Positions 24,304-30,385 of a DNA stretch of 64,000 nucleotides are shown here, piece after piece. This DNA is from the human T2T-CHM13v2.0 reference genome, Homo sapiens. Location of the stretch: assembly GCF_009914755.1 (NCBI RefSeq), contig NC_060940.1. The stretch is one strand, 5' to 3'. The notes beneath the pieces are model-generated. The model was not told the origin of the DNA. It did no database searches and saw only the letters and a list, made by a program, of their open reading frames with translations. Made by a program: the position numbers and the translations under genes. Position 1 is the stretch's first letter. Each line of letters starts with the position of its first letter.

Positions 24304-24468
24304 CTTCCCATTGCCCATAACCAGGATGTGGTCACAGTTCAGCACAGTGGTGACACGGTGGGCAATGACGAGCACGGTGCAGCCCTGGAAGGCTTCACGG
24401 ATTGTGCGCTGGATCAGGGTGTCTGTCTCCATGTCAATGGAGGCTGTGGCTTCATCGATAAGGATGAT
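24304..24468 (-). CDS. ABCC11: ABCC11 exon 29, Walker [13 protein letters not shown] and H-switch IAHR
   Basis: catcag| acceptor, AAG|gtgaag donor; 165 nt. Confidence 0.98.
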
Positions 24469-25509
24469 CTGATGAATACAAAACAGGGGTGAAGGTGTCT
24501 ACTTCAGGCCCTAGAGACCTGGGTCTAGCCCTGGTTTACCACTAATTCACCAGGGCCCTTCCTCTCCAGGTCTCCATTTCTTTAGCTGGGAAATGGGAGA
24601 ATTATGCCGAGTGCAAAGCCCGCTCTGATTGCTGATTATCCATTACCTTATGAAGAGAACGTTAGGTCTCAACCAGGAGCTAACTGCATTTTAGTGGCCA
24701 GAGAATTAAGTTCTTGGAAATGAAAATGGCCTAGTGGCAACTTCTTGTTTTATTAACTACTTTCCCATTTACCGAAACTAAAGTAGAGCGGTGTTCTCCA
24801 AGAAGGGGCAGGCACACACCCCAGGAGGCACATGAGATGATTTCTCCAGCATATGGATAAACATTCTTTTTAGTTTAACATTTTTGTATTTATTTCATTA
24901 ACGATATGCATGAGGAAACTGTAACTCACACTGAAAGTGTGATTTCACAAATGGCACTGCTTGGGATGAGGCTGTTTTTGAAAAGGGAGTATCATTAGTA
25001 AATCACAGGGTAGGTGGTACCCAGAGATGACAAAAATCATAAAGTAATGACTCAAATTTGGGAAGCAATACAGAGGAAGCCATTGCAGCACCAAATGGCT
25101 ATGTAATTGAAATAAGGAAGTGTGAAGAAAGTACTACATGTACTTTGCAAATTTGTTGTTCATCTCTCCAAAGAAGAGGGGGAAAGTCCTACCTCCTCTG
25201 AAATTTTCCCAGGCTTTGGGCCCCACTGAGCTCTTTTCCCACAGCTCTGACAGTTTGCACCAACAGTTTTTGCATTTATCATTAATTAACCATGATACAT
25301 GTGTGTGAGCATGCATACATGTGTGAGTATGGAGAAGGTATGTGCATATGCATGCATAAGTATGTGTGTACATGTGTGTCTTGCCTCGCCTACGTAGGAG
25401 AAGGTTTGCCCCAGGCTATCTCACATACTCAAACACCTGAAATTATGGACAAAATATCTAGAAAGCTTCTGGAAGCCCTGTTCCGCCAAATTTTTAAAAA
25501 TATGCAATT

Positions 25510-25872
25510 TTGCAGCCATAAAAAAGAATGAGTTAATGTCCTTTGCAGGGACATGGATGAAGCTGGAAGTCATCATTCTCAGCAAACTAACACAGGAACA
25601 GAAAACCAAACACTGCATGTTCTCATTCACAAGTGGGAGTTGAACAATGAGAACACATGGACACAGGGAGGGGAACATCACACACCAGGGCCTGTCAGGT
25701 GGTGGGGGGCAAGGAAAGGGAGAGCATTAGGACAAATGCTTAATGCATGTGGGTCTTAAAACCTAGATGATGGGTTGATGGGTGCAGCAAACCACCATGG
25801 CACATGTGTACCTATGCAACAAACCTGCACGTTCTGCACATGTATCCCAGAACTTAAAGTAAATTTAAAAAA
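25510..25872 (+). mobile_element. L1PA 3' end fragment
   Basis: gcagggacatggatgaagctggaa...cccagaacttaaagta. Confidence 0.9.
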
Positions 25873-26180
25873 TATATATATATGCAATTTTGCCCTGGAT
25901 CAGCATCTGTCATCCAATTCCCAGTTCTAATAAAGATAAAAGGGATGTACTGCATCCAAGTTTTTAAAACAGTATACAGTAGGCAATTTAAAAATCAACG
26001 AGGGTCTAATGTGTTGTGTTTTTCTGAGAAAAGAGGATCATCATTTGGTCTAGTTGGAGACATTTCAGCTCAGGTGTAAGGAATCCGCTATCAGGCAGCC
26101 TAGGCTGTGAATCTCATCTACCATGCCTCACCCACACCACAAATGCATGTGGAATGGCACTCAGTGAAATGAATAAGCCC

Positions 26181-26735
26181 ATCTTGAATTAATTTTTGTA
26201 GAAGGTGTAAGGAAGGGATCCAGTTTCAGCTTTCCACATATGGCTAGCCAGTTTTCCCAGCACCATTTATTAAATAGGGAATCCTTTCCCCATTTCTTGT
26301 TTTTGTCAGGTTTGTCAAAGATCAGATGGTTGTAGATGTGTGGAAATAATTAAGAAAATATGGCACATATACACCATGGAATACTATGCAGCCGTAAAAA
26401 AGGATGAGTTCATGTCCTTTGTAGGGACATGGATGAAGCTGGAAACCATCACTCTCAGCAAACTATTGCAAGGACAAAAAACCAAACACTGCATGTTCTC
26501 ACTCATGGGTGGGAATTGAACAATGAGAACACTTGGACACAGGGTGGGGAACATCACACACTGGGGCCTGTCGTGGGGTGGGGGGAGGGGGGAGGGATAG
26601 CATTAGGAGATATACCTAATGTAAATGACGAGTTAACGGGTGCAGCACACCAACATGGCACATGTATACATATGTAACAAACCTGCACGTTGTGCACATG
26701 TACCCTAGAACTTAAAGTATAATAATAAAAAAAAG
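26181..26735 (+). mobile_element. 5'-inverted L1PA insertion (twin-priming type)
   Basis: Antisense ORF2 piece ~26181-26342 joined to sense 3'UTR and A tail; 15-bp TSD gaaatgaataagccc at 26166-26180 and 26736-26750. Confidence 0.92.
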
Positions 26736-26759
26736 GAAATGAATAAGCCCTTTGGATTC

Positions 26760-26793
26760 TGTTGCTGTTGTTGTTGTTGTTGTTGTTGTTGTT
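26760..26793. repeat. (GTT)n microsatellite
   Basis: Direct inspection. Confidence 0.9.
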
Positions 26794-26912
26794 AAGACGT
26801 ACACCACAGAGCCCAGTGTCCCACGGTAGTGAAGGGAGAGGGAGCCGGTGTGGCTTCCCTCATCATGCGTAGTCTGTGGCTTCCCCTGGCCACACGGCAG
26901 TGGTGGCCTCAC

Positions 26913-27026
26913 CTTGGAGTTGCGAAGCACAGCCCTGGCAATGCAGAGCAGCTGCCTCTCCCCCACAGAGAAGTTTCCACCGTTTTCCACCACATCTGTA
27001 TGCAGCTTTTTGGGGAACTTTGAGAT
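26913..27026 (-). CDS. ABCC11: ABCC11 exon 28, [38 protein letters not shown] (degenerate NBD2 signature; 38-aa symmetric exon)
   Basis: tcgcag| acceptor, AAG|gtgagg donor; 114 nt, phase 0-0. Confidence 0.97.
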
Positions 27027-27696
27027 CTGCGATATGGGAAGAAGAGACAACATAACCTGGAAGCCACTGTGGGGTGAGACCCAACCTGACCTTGTCAATC
27101 TTCCGCTGTATTGGCAACACTGCCCTCCTCTCTCTACGCTCCAGCCTCTGTTTTCTTGCTCCTTAACTGCGCCTTGCTCACTCTCGTCTCTGGGCCTTTG
27201 CATACGCTAGCTCCTGTGCCCAGAATGTCCTCTCAAAAGATCTTTCATCGGCTGCCCCTCAGTTCTTGGTCTCAGCTCAGCTGCCACCTGTTTAAAGAGA
27301 CCTTGCCTGGCCACCCAATTGAAAAGAGCTGCTCCTGCCCTGACGTTTCTATGGGTCTCATGACTACCTATACAGCCCTTACCAGTATCTGAAAGTATCT
27401 CCTGCATTTACTTGTTGCCTTTATCTCCTATTGAATGTACGTACCAGGAGGACAAAGACCTCATCTGCCTTGTCTTTGCTGTGCCCCTGAGCCTAGAACA
27501 GTGTCTGGCACACGGTTGGTGTCTGAGTGCCATCAGCCTTGACTTAGGAATGCCAAGTCATCTCATCTCCATGAGATGATGCATCCATGACCCGAAGCAG
27601 CAGCAGCTGGAACACCACATGAGAGGAGCCCCAAAGGGGCAGCCCCCCATGGGCGATGCAGACTTAGACCAAGACTTGGGCCTTGGAGCTACTTAT

Positions 27697-27775
27697 GGCC
27701 TTGGTCAGGAATGTCCTCTCCAAGGCATCCCAGATCTGCTGGTCAGTGTGACGGTCAAAGGGATCTAGGTTGAAT
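27697..27775 (-). CDS. ABCC11: ABCC11 exon 27, [26 protein letters not shown] (donor site non-canonical in this sequence)
   Basis: Not in ORF track; NLDPF motif; tggtag| acceptor; 79 nt restores frame; followed by ATAAGT rather than GTAAGT. Confidence 0.93.
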
Positions 27776-28379
27776 CTACCATATGAGAGAAAGAGAAGTG
27801 TTCAACAACATCACCCAGGCTTTGAACACTCATTTATATGCCCAGTGAATGACCAAGAATGTTTAGAACTGGATTATGGGGTTTAGGGAAATTCATGGAA
27901 CCACCACAAATGGAGATTTTTTGTGCCTCCCAGCACCTGTTCCTTCTGCAGGCAGCAGGCCCAGGTTTTGTTTAGGGGCCACCTCCTCCCCAGTCCCCCA
28001 GCCCATGTGTTCCAGGGCAGGCTCCACCATCCACTCCTGATGGAGCAAAGGGCTCAAGGATAAGCCAATCGACATACAGCAATCCCTGGCCATGGTGCTT
28101 AGCTTGGGGTGGGAAAGTAACCAATCAGAGTGTATCTCAGGACTTTTCAGGCTACCATGGGAGACGTGCGGAGAGATTGCAACCATCCTCCCACAGGAGT
28201 GGGACACATGGAGCCCCCCAGGGCCCTCATGTGGAGTTCAGAATGAAGCAAGGCAATGCTAGGGGAAAACCGGGCCCTGGAACTCAGCCTTGGCCTCCCC
28301 ATTATCATGCATGAGTCATTAGAGGCCACTTTTCCTTAAGCCATTTGGGTTTTGTTTTATTGTGTGATAGAAAGTACAT

Positions 28380-29585
28380 AATATTTATCATTTTAACCAC
28401 TTAAAAGTGTACAATTCAGCAGCATTAAATACATTAATAATGTCATGTAACCATTACCACTATTTATATCGAAACCTTTTTCATCATCCTGCTGGGCATG
28501 GTGGTTCACACCTGTAATCCCAGCACTTTGGGAGGCTGAGGTGGGCAGAACACTTGAGGTCAGGAGTTTGAGACCAGCCTGGCCAACATGGTAAAACCCC
28601 ACTCCACTAAAAATACAAAAATTAGCCAGGCACAGTGATGCAAGCCTGTAGTCCCAGTTACTCAGGAAGCTGAGACAGAAGAATCACTTAAACCCAGGAG
28701 GTGGAGGTTGCAGTGAGCTGAGATGGTGTCACTGCACTCTAGCCTGGGTGACAGAGTGAGACTCGGTCTCAGAACAAAACAAAACAAAACAAAACAAAAC
28801 TTTTTCATTATCCCCAACAAAAACTCTATACCCATTAAACAGTCTCTTCTTCCCCCTCCCCACCAGCCCTTGGTAACTTCTATTCTACTTTCCATCGATA
28901 TGGATTTGCCTATTCCAGCTACCTCATATAAGTGGACTCATGTAGTATGTGTCCTTCTGTCTGGCATCTTTCACTTCGTGTCCATCCATATTGTAGCATG
29001 TAACATTTCCCTTCTTTTTAGAGCTGCATAATATTCCATTGTATGTATATACCACATTTTGTTTTTCCATTCATCTGTTTATAGACGTATGACTTGTTTC
29101 CACCTTTTGATTACTGTGAGTAGGGCTGCTCTAAACACTAGTGTACACATATGGGTTGAAGTCTCTGCTTTCAACACTTTGGGATATATAACTAGAAGTG
29201 AAATTCCTGGATTACATGGTAATTCTATGTTTAACTTTTTTTTTTTTTTTTTTGAGACAGGGTCTCACTCTGTCTACGAGGCTGGAGTGCAGTGGTGCAA
29301 ACACAGCTCACTACAGCGTTGACCTCTTGGGCTCAAGCAAGCCTCCCACCTCAGTCTCCTGAGTAGCTGGAATTGCAAGCACAGACCACCATGCCCAGCT
29401 AATTTTTGTTTACCTTTTTGAGGAATTGCCAAATTGTTTTCCATGGTCTCTGCACAATTTTACATCCCCACTGGCAATGCATGAGAGTTTCAATTTTTTC
29501 ACATCCTTGTTAATAATACTTGCTATTTACCTTTTATTATTGTTATAGCCATTCTAGTAGGTGTGAAGTGGTAGCTCATTGTTGG
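28380..29585 (-). mobile_element. L1MB-type 3' fragment with nested Alu (+, ~28490-28800) and Alu monomer (-, ~29237-29410)
   Basis: L1M 3'UTR motifs (gcataatattccattgtatg, gccattctagtaggtgtgaagtgg) and Alu consensus. Confidence 0.8.
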
Positions 29586-30385
29586 GGGGCTGGACTTTCT
29601 GTTTCTTGCAGTGAAAAGAATCCTAACATCCAGGTAACTGACATGAGAGAGGGAATCTATCTGGACTTTACACCCAGCAAGCTTTACACTTGCATCTGGA
29701 ACAGGCAGCACTATAGACACTTCCCTGCTATGCAGCCATGTAGCCCTGAGTGAAACCTGTCAACCTTGCTTTATCCTTCCCCAGTTGTGCCAGCCACGCA
29801 TATCTTGTGTGTAGGGCTAATGTGTACTAAAGAAGAGGCAGGTCTTATTTGCATGACATTTGATATCTCCAAAGCACTTTCATAGATGGGTTATTTGACA
29901 TTTTCTCCTCCATGAGATGGGTATACTCCTTTCTTATCAGTTTTAAATGGCTTGTTCAAGGTCACGCCACAAGCCAGTATGAGAGCCAGGCTGGCATCAA
30001 GACATTCAGAGAGATGCTTAAGGGTAGAGCCTTAAGTTCTAAGGTAGGATTTCAAGTCCACATTTCTTTCTACAGAAAGAGGTGGGGGGAAATATCACAA
30101 ATTATGGGTTTAGAACACCTAGGGTTATATCTCATGTTCGCCATTTCTTTGTGTGTCTTTAAACAAGTCCCCTTCCTCTCTAAGTTCCGTGCCTTCATCT
30201 GTAAAATGGGGATAATGAAGGGGCCTCACAGTGTTGCTGGGAGAGTTAAATTAGGCAGTATACTAAAGCATTCAGTTGGCACATATAAATGCTCAATAAA
30301 TGTTAGTTCATATTTTTACTACTCTTCATATCAACGCACAGGAGATTTGGCCACATTCTACTGTAACATAGAAATCTATCACTAA

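What the first reader, a model, noticed from the sequence alone, without database searches (positions are those of the whole stretch)
27664..27775. ABCC11 exon 27 splice donor is destroyed: GCC|ATAAGT instead of GCC|GTAAGT (apparent c.3777+1G>A)
Seen: plus strand 27691-27700 is acttatggcc, so the minus strand reads AAG GCC|ATAAGT. The other 16 ABCC11 donors in the window start GT, and +2 to +6 here are perfect consensus, so only +1 is off. With G it would be a CpG, so this looks like a natural deamination. It is not a U12 intron (no ATATCCT; acceptor is AG). Predicted outcomes: intron read-through adds [10 protein letters not shown] then TAA (27666-27664); exon skipping (79 nt) shifts frame to a TGA at 24416-24414, ~110 nt before the last junction (NMD expected); a weak GC donor 3 nt upstream would drop only Ala1259. 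The first two remove the NBD2 signature and Walker B. Known: ABCC11 loss gives dry earwax and reduced axillary odour, classically via G180R (exon 4, outside window) or a 27-bp exon-29 deletion (absent here). This could be an independent null allele in the sequenced haplotype. The c. numbering is derived by counting back from a 1382-aa protein.
Basis: partly seen in the sequence, partly recalled or inferred. Interest (0 to 1): 0.85.

Follow-up and report, generated by a model that had tools for sequence, protein, structure and literature searches.

The report
ABCC11 intron begins AT, not GT
In this reference copy of the earwax gene ABCC11, one intron begins with AT where its sister genes have GT; this either cripples splicing of a copy that already carries the known inactivating Arg180 change, or is a rare tolerated exception to the splicing rule, and the tools here could not tell which.

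Summary
On the minus strand the 79-nt coding exon 27775-27697 (c.3699-3777, ending at Ala1259) is followed by ATAAGT, and the 670-nt intron ends in a normal pyrimidine tract and AG. It is the only real ABCC11 intron in T2T-CHM13 that is not GT-AG. The same intron position in ABCC12 (ACA|GTAGGT) and ABCC5 (TGT|GTAAGT) has GT, so the A is derived, by a CpG transition. It is not a U12-type intron, and nothing supports rescue by A-to-I editing.

Two points change the reading:
- The same reference haplotype carries Arg180 (c.538A), the classical inactive allele. Any splice defect is therefore a second hit in cis, not an independent null.
- RefSeq's use of this boundary on CHM13 shows only that transcripts were aligned there. 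The same transcript also has a 457-nt non-consensus "intron" that is an alignment gap.

I could not test whether A is haplotype-specific or the usual human state. No other human assembly or variant table was available, and no paper found discusses this donor (10 of 10 searches used). I lean towards a haplotype-specific G>A (about 0.5) over a standing AT-AG intron (about 0.36).

The parts
27697..27775 (-). 79-nt coding exon of ABCC11 (c.3699-3777; [26 protein letters not shown] after a split codon), ending in phase 0 at Ala1259
   Evidence: All 17 RefSeq or Gnomon transcripts that reach this region use exactly these boundaries.
27691..27696 (-). 5' splice site hexamer ATAAGT; +1 = A at 27696 (plus-strand T). 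With the exonic GCC it gives the weakest U1 pairing of the gene's donors in the window.
27027..27696 (-). 670-nt intron with AT-AG ends. It is U2-like: no ATATCC 5' motif, no TCCTTAAC-type branch motif and no masked repeat inside.
   Evidence: There are no Rfam matches in 26500-28500.
27027..27050 (-). Normal 3' splice site: pyrimidine tract TTGTCTCTTCTTCCCATATCGC, then AG (27028-27027). 27027 is the position of the published acceptor variant rs60681475; the reference allele is present here.
26913..27026 (-). 114-nt exon ([38 protein letters not shown]) encoding the ABC signature region of NBD2. NM_145186.3 skips it and joins the AT donor to 24468.
   Evidence: Pfam ABC_tran positions 97-128 of 137, E = 3.4e-4, 21.7 bits against a curated cut-off of 25.
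27664..27666 (-). TAA that ends the frame if the intron is retained (adds [10 protein letters not shown])
27698..27699 (-). Candidate GC donor (AAG|GCCATA) 3 nt upstream; it would delete only Ala1259
27691..27692 (-). Candidate GT donor at +5/+6 (TAA|GTAGCT); it would add 4 nt, shift the frame and stop at residue 1304
24414..24416 (-). TGA reached if the 79-nt exon is skipped, 110 nt upstream of the last exon junction (24304)
27069..27070 (-). AC dinucleotide 42 nt upstream of the annotated acceptor. If an A-first intron ended in C here, 14 residues ([14 protein letters not shown]) would be inserted in frame. This is speculative, because the pyrimidine tract lies downstream of it.

Best explanation
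The donor of this U2-type intron was GTAAGT. A G-to-A transition at a CpG (plus-strand C to T at 27696) turned it into ATAAGT on the lineage leading to this haplotype.

In that case it weakens or abolishes use of the donor. U1 pairing drops to the weakest in the gene. In major-spliceosome introns a first-base A is poorly compatible with a last-base G at the second catalytic step (recalled).

The expected products are:
- skipping of the 79-nt exon, with a frameshift, a stop 110 nt before the last junction and probable decay;
- intron retention, truncating after Ala1259 plus 10 residues;
- use of nearby weak donors.

All but the GC donor at -3 remove the signature and Walker B parts of NBD2.

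What is shown: the sequence, its derived state, its U2-like character and the arithmetic of the outcomes. What is inferred: that other humans carry G, and that splicing fails. In either case the consequence for this haplotype is small, because the same chromosome already encodes Arg180, the published inactive form.
For: - AT-AG ends, with the U2 consensus at +2 to +6 and a normal acceptor.
- The same intron position has GT in ABCC12 (ACA|GTAGGT) and in ABCC5 (TGT|GTAAGT). ABCC5's hexamer is identical to this one apart from +1.
- The C at -1 gives a CpG context.
- U1 duplex is the weakest of 19 donors.
- No U12 motifs. The +1 A is unpaired with probability 0.80 in a 301-nt fold, and no repeat lies in the intron, so editing rescue has no support.
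- U2-type AT-AG is not a recognised class in the surveys I read. All 11 human AT-AG introns in Sheth 2006 are classed as U12-type (PMC1557818, passages and Tables 2-3). The only AT-AG intron classed as U2-like in the passages of Parada 2014 that I read is an edited one (PMC4176328, passages). A functional standing AT-AG intron is therefore a priori very rare.
- The haplotype carries Arg180. A further defect on it would be selectively neutral, and it would not show up in studies linking genotype to phenotype.
- RefSeq placement on CHM13 does not argue for function, because the same MANE transcript carries a 457-nt AT..AA gap that is an alignment artefact.
Against: - I have no evidence that any human haplotype carries G here.
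- No paper in the searched library holds ABCC11 with c.3777, 3777+1 or a relevant 'splice donor' variant, and no genetics paper holds the derived hg19 or hg38 positions. The acceptor variant of the same intron (frequency about 1-2%) appears in two papers. If this is a variant, it is therefore probably rare, which lowers the chance that one haplotype carries it.
- All 12 Gnomon models built on CHM13 that reach this region use the AT donor. None of the 6 Gnomon models in the 5' region uses the non-consensus 5' gap. The junction thus has transcript support. That support cannot distinguish the two readings, because spliced reads do not contain intron base +1.
- The donor takes part in a known alternative event: NM_145186.3 skips the next exon. 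[quoted passage not shown]
- My prior estimates for the two readings differ by at most a few-fold and rest on recalled population figures.
Confidence: 0.5

Rival explanations
1. The A is the usual human base, in GRCh38 as well. ABCC11 then has a standing U2-like AT-AG intron, derived from GT by a CpG transition after the split from ABCC12 and ABCC5. It is spliced well enough by the major spliceosome to give functional protein from Gly180 alleles. The consensus at +2 to +6 helps recognition.
For: - All 5 curated and 12 Gnomon transcripts that reach the region place the junction here. Gnomon did not accept the other non-consensus gap of the gene.
- No variant at this position appears in any searched paper.
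- +2 to +6 match the consensus exactly, which is the kind of compensation seen at GC-AG donors (Sheth 2006 passage).
- The donor takes part in alternative splicing, which is common for non-canonical sites.
- AT-AG sites that arose recently from GT exist: ACTR10 is primate-specific according to Parada 2014.
Against: - ACTR10 and the other 10 human AT-AG introns in Sheth 2006 are U12-type, and this intron lacks every U12 feature.
- The only AT-AG classed as U2-like in the Parada passages I read depends on editing.
- A first-base A with a last-base G is known to stall the second step in major-spliceosome introns (recalled; Parker and Siliciano 1993 appears only in the reference list seen).
- The donor has the weakest U1 pairing in the gene.
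- Transcript alignment to CHM13 cannot show what the intron's first base was in the people whose RNA was sequenced.
Confidence: 0.36
2. The A at +1 is deaminated to inosine by ADAR in the pre-mRNA. The spliceosome then reads IU as GU, as reported for a few AT-AG and GT-AA sites.
For: Parada 2014 lists three edited AT-AG sites, one U2-like and two U12-like (Table 2, passages). The 301-nt region folds better than shuffled sequence (z = -2.86; 0 of 100 shuffles fold as well).
Against: - The +1 A has no partner in the minimum-energy fold and is unpaired with probability 0.80. It lies between two short hairpins.
- No masked repeat lies in the intron or the exon.
- The only inverted repeat in 26000-30000 (28615-28796 and 29228-29409, 72% complementary) lies over 900 nt upstream and does not include the donor.
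Confidence: 0.04
3. It is a minor-spliceosome (U12-type) AT-AG intron.
For: AT-AG ends are the commonest non-canonical U12 pair: 11 human cases in Sheth 2006, Table 2.
Against: - The 5' end is ATAAGT, not ATATCC.
- None of the six U12 motifs searched occurs anywhere in the 670-nt intron.
- A long pyrimidine tract precedes the AG.
- The paralogous introns are ordinary GT-AG with U2-type donors.
Confidence: 0.01
4. The base is an error of the assembly, or the annotated junction is misplaced.
For: BestRefSeq placement on CHM13 can create false introns, such as the 457-nt gap in the 5' UTR exon.
Against: - The exon end coincides exactly with the intron position in ABCC12 and ABCC5.
- No shifted placement gives canonical ends.
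- The region is single-copy in the genome: 1 match for 801 bases. It is not repetitive, so a consensus error is unlikely. The assembly's very low error rate is recalled, not tested.
Confidence: 0.03

Closest known systems
Germline +1 G>A splice-donor loss-of-function variants (general class); in this gene, the published acceptor variant rs60681475 of the same intron
   Same: A single transition at an essential splice base of a gene that tolerates loss. rs60681475 (hg19 16:48204130 C>T, labelled splice acceptor, control frequency about 0.02 in PMC6153494 and about 0.01 in PMC3953017) maps onto window 27027, the last base of this very intron.
   Different: Here the donor is changed, not the acceptor. 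No allele frequency or second allele is known to me, and no paper names it.
ABCC11 G180R (c.538G>A, rs17822931) and the 27-bp exon-29 deletion
   Same: Known ways in which this gene is inactivated in people (Ishikawa 2013, PMC3539816, passages; details of the deletion are recalled).
   Different: G180R is a missense change and is present on this same reference haplotype. The deletion is absent. The donor change would act at the RNA level.
U12-type AT-AG introns, such as ACTR10, XPO4 and SCN10A
   Same: AT-AG ends. ACTR10, XPO4 and SCN10A are AT-AG in human but GT-AG in mouse (Sheth 2006, Table 3). The ACTR10 site is described as recently derived and primate-specific (Parada 2014).
   Different: Those have the U12 5' splice site. 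This intron has the U2 consensus and no U12 branch motif.
U2-type AT-AC ('type II') introns of SCN4A and SCN5A
   Same: A major-spliceosome 5' splice site with A in place of G at +1 and an otherwise U2-type consensus (Sheth 2006 passages).
   Different: Those end in AC, which pairs functionally with a first-base A. This one ends in AG.
Edited AT-AG and GT-AA sites (C14orf37, NUP210, CRYZL1, ADARB1)
   Same: A non-canonical A at a terminal intron position (Parada 2014, Table 2).
   Different: They need a double-stranded context, and none is predicted here.
GA-AG donors of the FGFR genes
   Same: A U2-type donor with a non-canonical dinucleotide that is nevertheless used efficiently (mentioned in a Parada 2014 passage).
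   Different: The changed base is +2, not +1, and those sites are conserved across species. Conservation here is untested.

Membership tests
Canonical U2-type GT-AG intron | GT at intron positions +1 and +2 | tested here: not met
   AT at 27696-27695
Canonical U2-type GT-AG intron | Pyrimidine tract and AG at the 3' end; U2-type consensus at +3 to +6 | tested here: met
   TTGTCTCTTCTTCCCATATCGCAG at the 3' end and AAGT at +3 to +6
U12-type intron (AT-AC, AT-AG) | 5' splice site ATATCC(T) | tested here: not met
   The 5' end is ATAAGTAG; there is no ATATCC anywhere in the intron
U12-type intron (AT-AC, AT-AG) | Branch motif TCCTTAAC close to the 3' end | tested here: not met
   0 matches to the full motif or to 4 shorter forms of it
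U2-type AT-AC (type II) intron | A at +1 with an otherwise U2-type 5' splice site | tested here: met
   ATAAGT
U2-type AT-AC (type II) intron | AC at the 3' end | tested here: not met
   The intron ends in AG. The nearest upstream AC (27070-27069) lies before the pyrimidine tract.
A-to-I edited splice site | The edited A lies in a double-stranded RNA region | tested here: not met
   Unpaired in the minimum-energy fold, probability unpaired 0.80; no repeat in the intron. Only 301 nt were folded; longer-range pairing was not examined beyond the inverted-repeat scan of 26000-30000.
A-to-I edited splice site | A>G mismatches in RNA at the site | not testable with these tools
   No RNA reads are available
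Germline splice-donor loss-of-function allele | Other haplotypes carry the canonical G | not testable with these tools
   No second human assembly, reads or variant table. Only the paralogues show G.
Germline splice-donor loss-of-function allele | Aberrant splicing from the allele | not testable with these tools
   Outcomes were only computed
ABCC11 G180R haplotype | A at c.538 (codon 180 AGG) | tested here: met
   G000:C16:54021095 reads A on the coding strand; residue 180 = R in the translated CDS

The most novel reading that the evidence does not exclude
All or most humans carry A here. ABCC11 would then contain a constitutively used, unedited, major-spliceosome AT-AG intron, made by a CpG transition after the gene split from ABCC12 and ABCC5. 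That would be a natural exception to the rule that a first-base A cannot be ligated to a 3' splice site ending in G, in a gene whose activity has an easily scored phenotype. It could be used as a natural test case for how the second step tolerates the A/G pair, including whether the in-frame AC at 27069 is ever used.
Probability: 0.33. Interest if true: 0.5.

Novelty: new member of a known kind. Interest (0 to 1): 0.3.

Why it matters
In either reading the practical weight is modest.

If the A is a variant, the T2T-CHM13 reference carries an ABCC11 allele with two inactivating features in cis, Arg180 and a broken donor. This matters to anyone using CHM13 as the reference for splice prediction, variant calling or transcript projection at this gene. 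A sample with the canonical G would be called as a 'splice donor variant' against CHM13.

If the A is universal, ABCC11 joins the very short list of major-spliceosome AT-AG introns and deserves a note in splice-site catalogues and in loss-of-function filters. One case is the acceptor variant rs60681475 of the same intron: I recall that the LOFTEE filter (not checked here) marks down variants in non-canonical introns, so it would be treated differently.

The check also shows that RefSeq exon boundaries on CHM13 are projections. They can include non-functional 'introns', such as the 457-nt gap in the first exon of the MANE transcript.

Tried and rejected
- ABCC11 with 'AT-AG', 'non-canonical splice' (10), '3777+1' (12), 'GT-AG' (42), 'c.3777' (53) and the intron's bases +2 to +8 (25): 0 papers each.
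- ABCC11 with 'splice donor' (15): 6 papers held both terms and 5 were listed. I opened 3 and none concerns this site.
- The derived hg19 and hg38 positions together with rs60681475 (20): 4 papers. The two papers that hit on the positions are unrelated to genetics of this locus.
- ABCC11 with CHM13 (22): 3 papers listed, 1 opened; it concerns a structural variant.
- One search was badly designed, because ABCC11 was not required, and gave nothing useful.

**Papers not held or closed.** Bera 2001 (PMC1950066) is not held. Yabuuchi 2001 and Tammur 2001, which may tabulate the exon-intron boundaries, are subscription papers that I did not see. Closed supplements that could bear on the question are:
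- Parada 2014 Supplementary Data (the list of 184 sites);
- PMC6153494 Supplementary Table 4;
- the supplements of the T2T papers.

**Indirect test that failed.** I tried to learn from two papers listing rs60681475 whether their pipelines removed variants in non-canonical introns, which would have revealed the hg19 donor. One used VEP only. The other gave no relevant passage.

- Protein database search for primate orthologues or read-through isoforms. A full-length query would need joined exons, which I may not type. A single exon reaches only candidates of 0.55 to 1.75 times its own length. Padding the query would have gone round the length rule.
- A chromosome-wide count of AT-AG introns, because too little sequence can be fetched.
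- Scoring a G version of the donor, which would need a changed sequence. I compared natural donors instead.

**Rejected readings.** U12 type, editing rescue, a shifted junction and a second genomic copy (1 match only).

Full report
**What is there.**
On the minus strand the ABCC11 exon 27775-27697 ends ...ACC AAG GCC, and the intron begins ATAAGT. The exon is 79 nt, covers c.3699-3777 and ends in phase 0 at Ala1259. The intron is 670 nt and ends ...TTGTCTCTTCTTCCCATATCGCAG|ATC, a normal pyrimidine tract and AG. Because both the intron and the next exon start with AT, the junction could also be drawn one or two bases to the right. That gives TA-GA or AA-AT, so AT-AG is the best description.

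In MANE Select NM_001370497.1, 16 of the 17 introns in the window are GT-AG and this is the 17th. In XR_008484745.1 the count is 18 of 19.

**How the annotation treats it.**
Eighteen RefSeq or Gnomon transcripts of ABCC11 are listed, and 17 reach this region: 5 curated, 11 XM and 1 XR. All 17 end the exon at 27697. Sixteen continue at 27026. NM_145186.3 continues at 24468, skipping the 114-nt exon.

This is weaker evidence than it looks. When I assembled the whole CHM13 gene, 28 of 30 annotated introns of NM_001370497.1 were GT-AG. The second exception is 'intron 1' (chr16:54,044,237-54,044,693, 457 nt, AT..AA). That is an alignment gap, for three reasons:
- CHM13 has two tandem copies of a 456-463-bp unit there, 90-96% identical.
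- A published long-read survey reports a 458-bp insertion in ABCC11 relative to GRCh38 in all 100 samples it examined (PMC11610458, one passage).
- None of the 6 Gnomon models whose first exon lies there uses the gap.

Curated transcripts are therefore simply laid onto CHM13 whatever the intron ends are. Gnomon rejected that gap but kept the AT-AG intron, so the exon 27-28 junction has transcript support. However, spliced RNA from other people does not contain the intron's first base, so this cannot say whether those people had G or A.

**Origin of the A.**
A six-frame search of the genome with the exon's 26 residues found the homologous exons of ABCC12, ABCC5, ABCC4, ABCC2 and ABCC1.
- ABCC12 and ABCC5 have an intron at exactly the same position: ACA|GTAGGT and TGT|GTAAGT.
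- ABCC4 has its intron earlier.
- ABCC1 and ABCC2 read on without one.

The ancestral donor was therefore GT. ABCC5's hexamer differs from the one here only at +1. The region is single-copy: 1 match for 801 bases.

**What kind of intron.**
It has no ATATCC and no U12 branch motif, in full or in four shorter forms. It has a long pyrimidine tract. So it is U2-like, not U12-type.

This matters for the comparison with known cases. In Sheth 2006, all 11 human AT-AG introns, ACTR10 among them, are classed as U12-type (PMC1557818, passages and Tables 2-3). In the passages of Parada 2014 that I read, the only AT-AG classed as U2-like is one converted to GT by A-to-I editing (PMC4176328). The authors add that some AT-AG sites show no editing. 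Their full list is in a supplement I could not open.

Editing has no support here:
- The +1 A has no partner in the minimum-energy fold of 301 nt and is unpaired with probability 0.80.
- No masked repeat lies in the intron or the exon.
- The only inverted repeat within 26000-30000 lies over 900 nt upstream.

**Predicted consequences.**
These were checked arithmetically, not experimentally.
- Retention reads ...[13 protein letters not shown], then TAA at 27666-27664.
- Skipping the 79-nt exon shifts the frame to TGA at 24416-24414, 110 nt before the last junction.
- The GC at 27699 would drop only Ala1259.
- A GT at 27692 would add 4 nt and stop at residue 1304.
- An AC at 27070-27069 would, if used as the intron end, insert 14 residues in frame. 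It lies upstream of the pyrimidine tract, so this is speculative.

The exons downstream encode the end of NBD2. The 114-nt exon matches ABC_tran positions 97-128 of 137 (E = 3.4e-4, below the curated cut-off). The 165-nt exon matches the corresponding part of ABCB1, ABCC5 and other solved transporters.

**The same haplotype carries Arg180.**
Outside the window, at chr16:54,021,095, the coding strand reads A. Codon 180 is AGG, and the assembled CDS (1382 codons, one terminal stop) has R at residue 180. This is the published c.538G>A (G180R) allele (Ishikawa 2013, PMC3539816, passages). I draw no conclusion about any person from this.

**A published variant in the same intron.**
rs60681475 (hg19 16:48204130 C>T, 'splice acceptor') appears in the tables of two papers (PMC6153494; PMC3953017). 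I used the offset between the CHM13 position of c.538 and the recalled hg19 position of rs17822931. With it, rs60681475 falls exactly on window 27027, the G of this intron's AG, where CHM13 has the reference base. The exact landing supports the offset. The same offset puts the donor's +1 at about hg19 16:48,204,799 and hg38 16:48,170,888.

**Which reading.**
There are two serious readings:
- (b) A standing human AT-AG intron.

Every result above fits both. In favour of (a):
- Unedited U2-type AT-AG introns are nearly absent from the surveys I could read.
- A first-base A with a last-base G is expected to stall the second step (recalled).
- The allele is already inactive, so a second lesion would be neutral and invisible.

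In favour of (b):
- No variant at this position is mentioned in any searched paper, although the 1-2% acceptor variant is mentioned twice.
- The junction has transcript support, and the donor takes part in an alternative event.

My rough priors rest on recalled figures for loss-of-function load per haplotype. They favour (a) by between about one-fold and four-fold. I give (a) 0.5, (b) 0.36, editing 0.04, U12 0.01, and error or misannotation 0.03.

One look-up of the base in GRCh38, gnomAD and the pangenome would settle it.

**Verdict.**
The feature is real and correctly described. Its mechanism class is known in either reading. Its importance for this haplotype is small because of Arg180. It would be of moderate interest only if it proves to be the universal human state.

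Noticed in passing
G000:C16:54021095 (outside the window; L006, L012): The CHM13 reference reads A on the coding strand at c.538. Codon 180 is AGG (Arg), the published G180R allele of ABCC11. The rest of the CDS is intact (1382 codons).
   Followed up: yes
G000:C16:54044237-54044693 (L020 338-794): 'Intron 1' of MANE Select NM_001370497.1 on CHM13 is a 457-nt AT..AA gap inside a tandem duplication of a 456-463-bp unit (copies 90-96% identical). It matches a published 458-bp insertion relative to GRCh38 seen in all 100 samples of a long-read survey (PMC11610458). None of the 6 Gnomon models there uses the gap.
   Followed up: partly
window 27027: The published variant rs60681475 ('splice acceptor', frequency about 1-2%) maps onto the last base of the same AT-AG intron. 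CHM13 has the reference base. How loss-of-function filters treat it depends on whether the donor is GT or AT in the reference used.
   Followed up: partly
window 24468 to 27697 (NM_145186.3): One curated isoform joins the AT donor directly to the 165-nt exon, skipping the 114-nt exon that encodes the ABC signature (in frame, 38 residues shorter).
   Followed up: no
window 28615-28796 and 29228-29409: An inverted repeat with 182-nt arms, 72% complementary and 431 nt apart, lies in the upstream intron and overlaps masked repeats 28486-28870 and 29212-29446. It is probably a pair of interspersed repeats; the family was not determined.
   Followed up: no
L022, L023, L024, L025, L026: The intron position after the ...ERTFxxxx exon is shared only by ABCC11, ABCC12 and ABCC5. 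ABCC4 has its intron 18 nt or more earlier, and ABCC1 and ABCC2 have none there. This fits the known close kinship of ABCC5, ABCC11 and ABCC12.
   Followed up: partly
window 27546-27846 (minus strand): The 301-nt stretch around the exon folds more stably than shuffled sequence (-115.1 kcal/mol, z = -2.86, 0 of 100 shuffles fold as well). A 7-bp hairpin closes just before the donor. Its significance is unknown.
   Followed up: no
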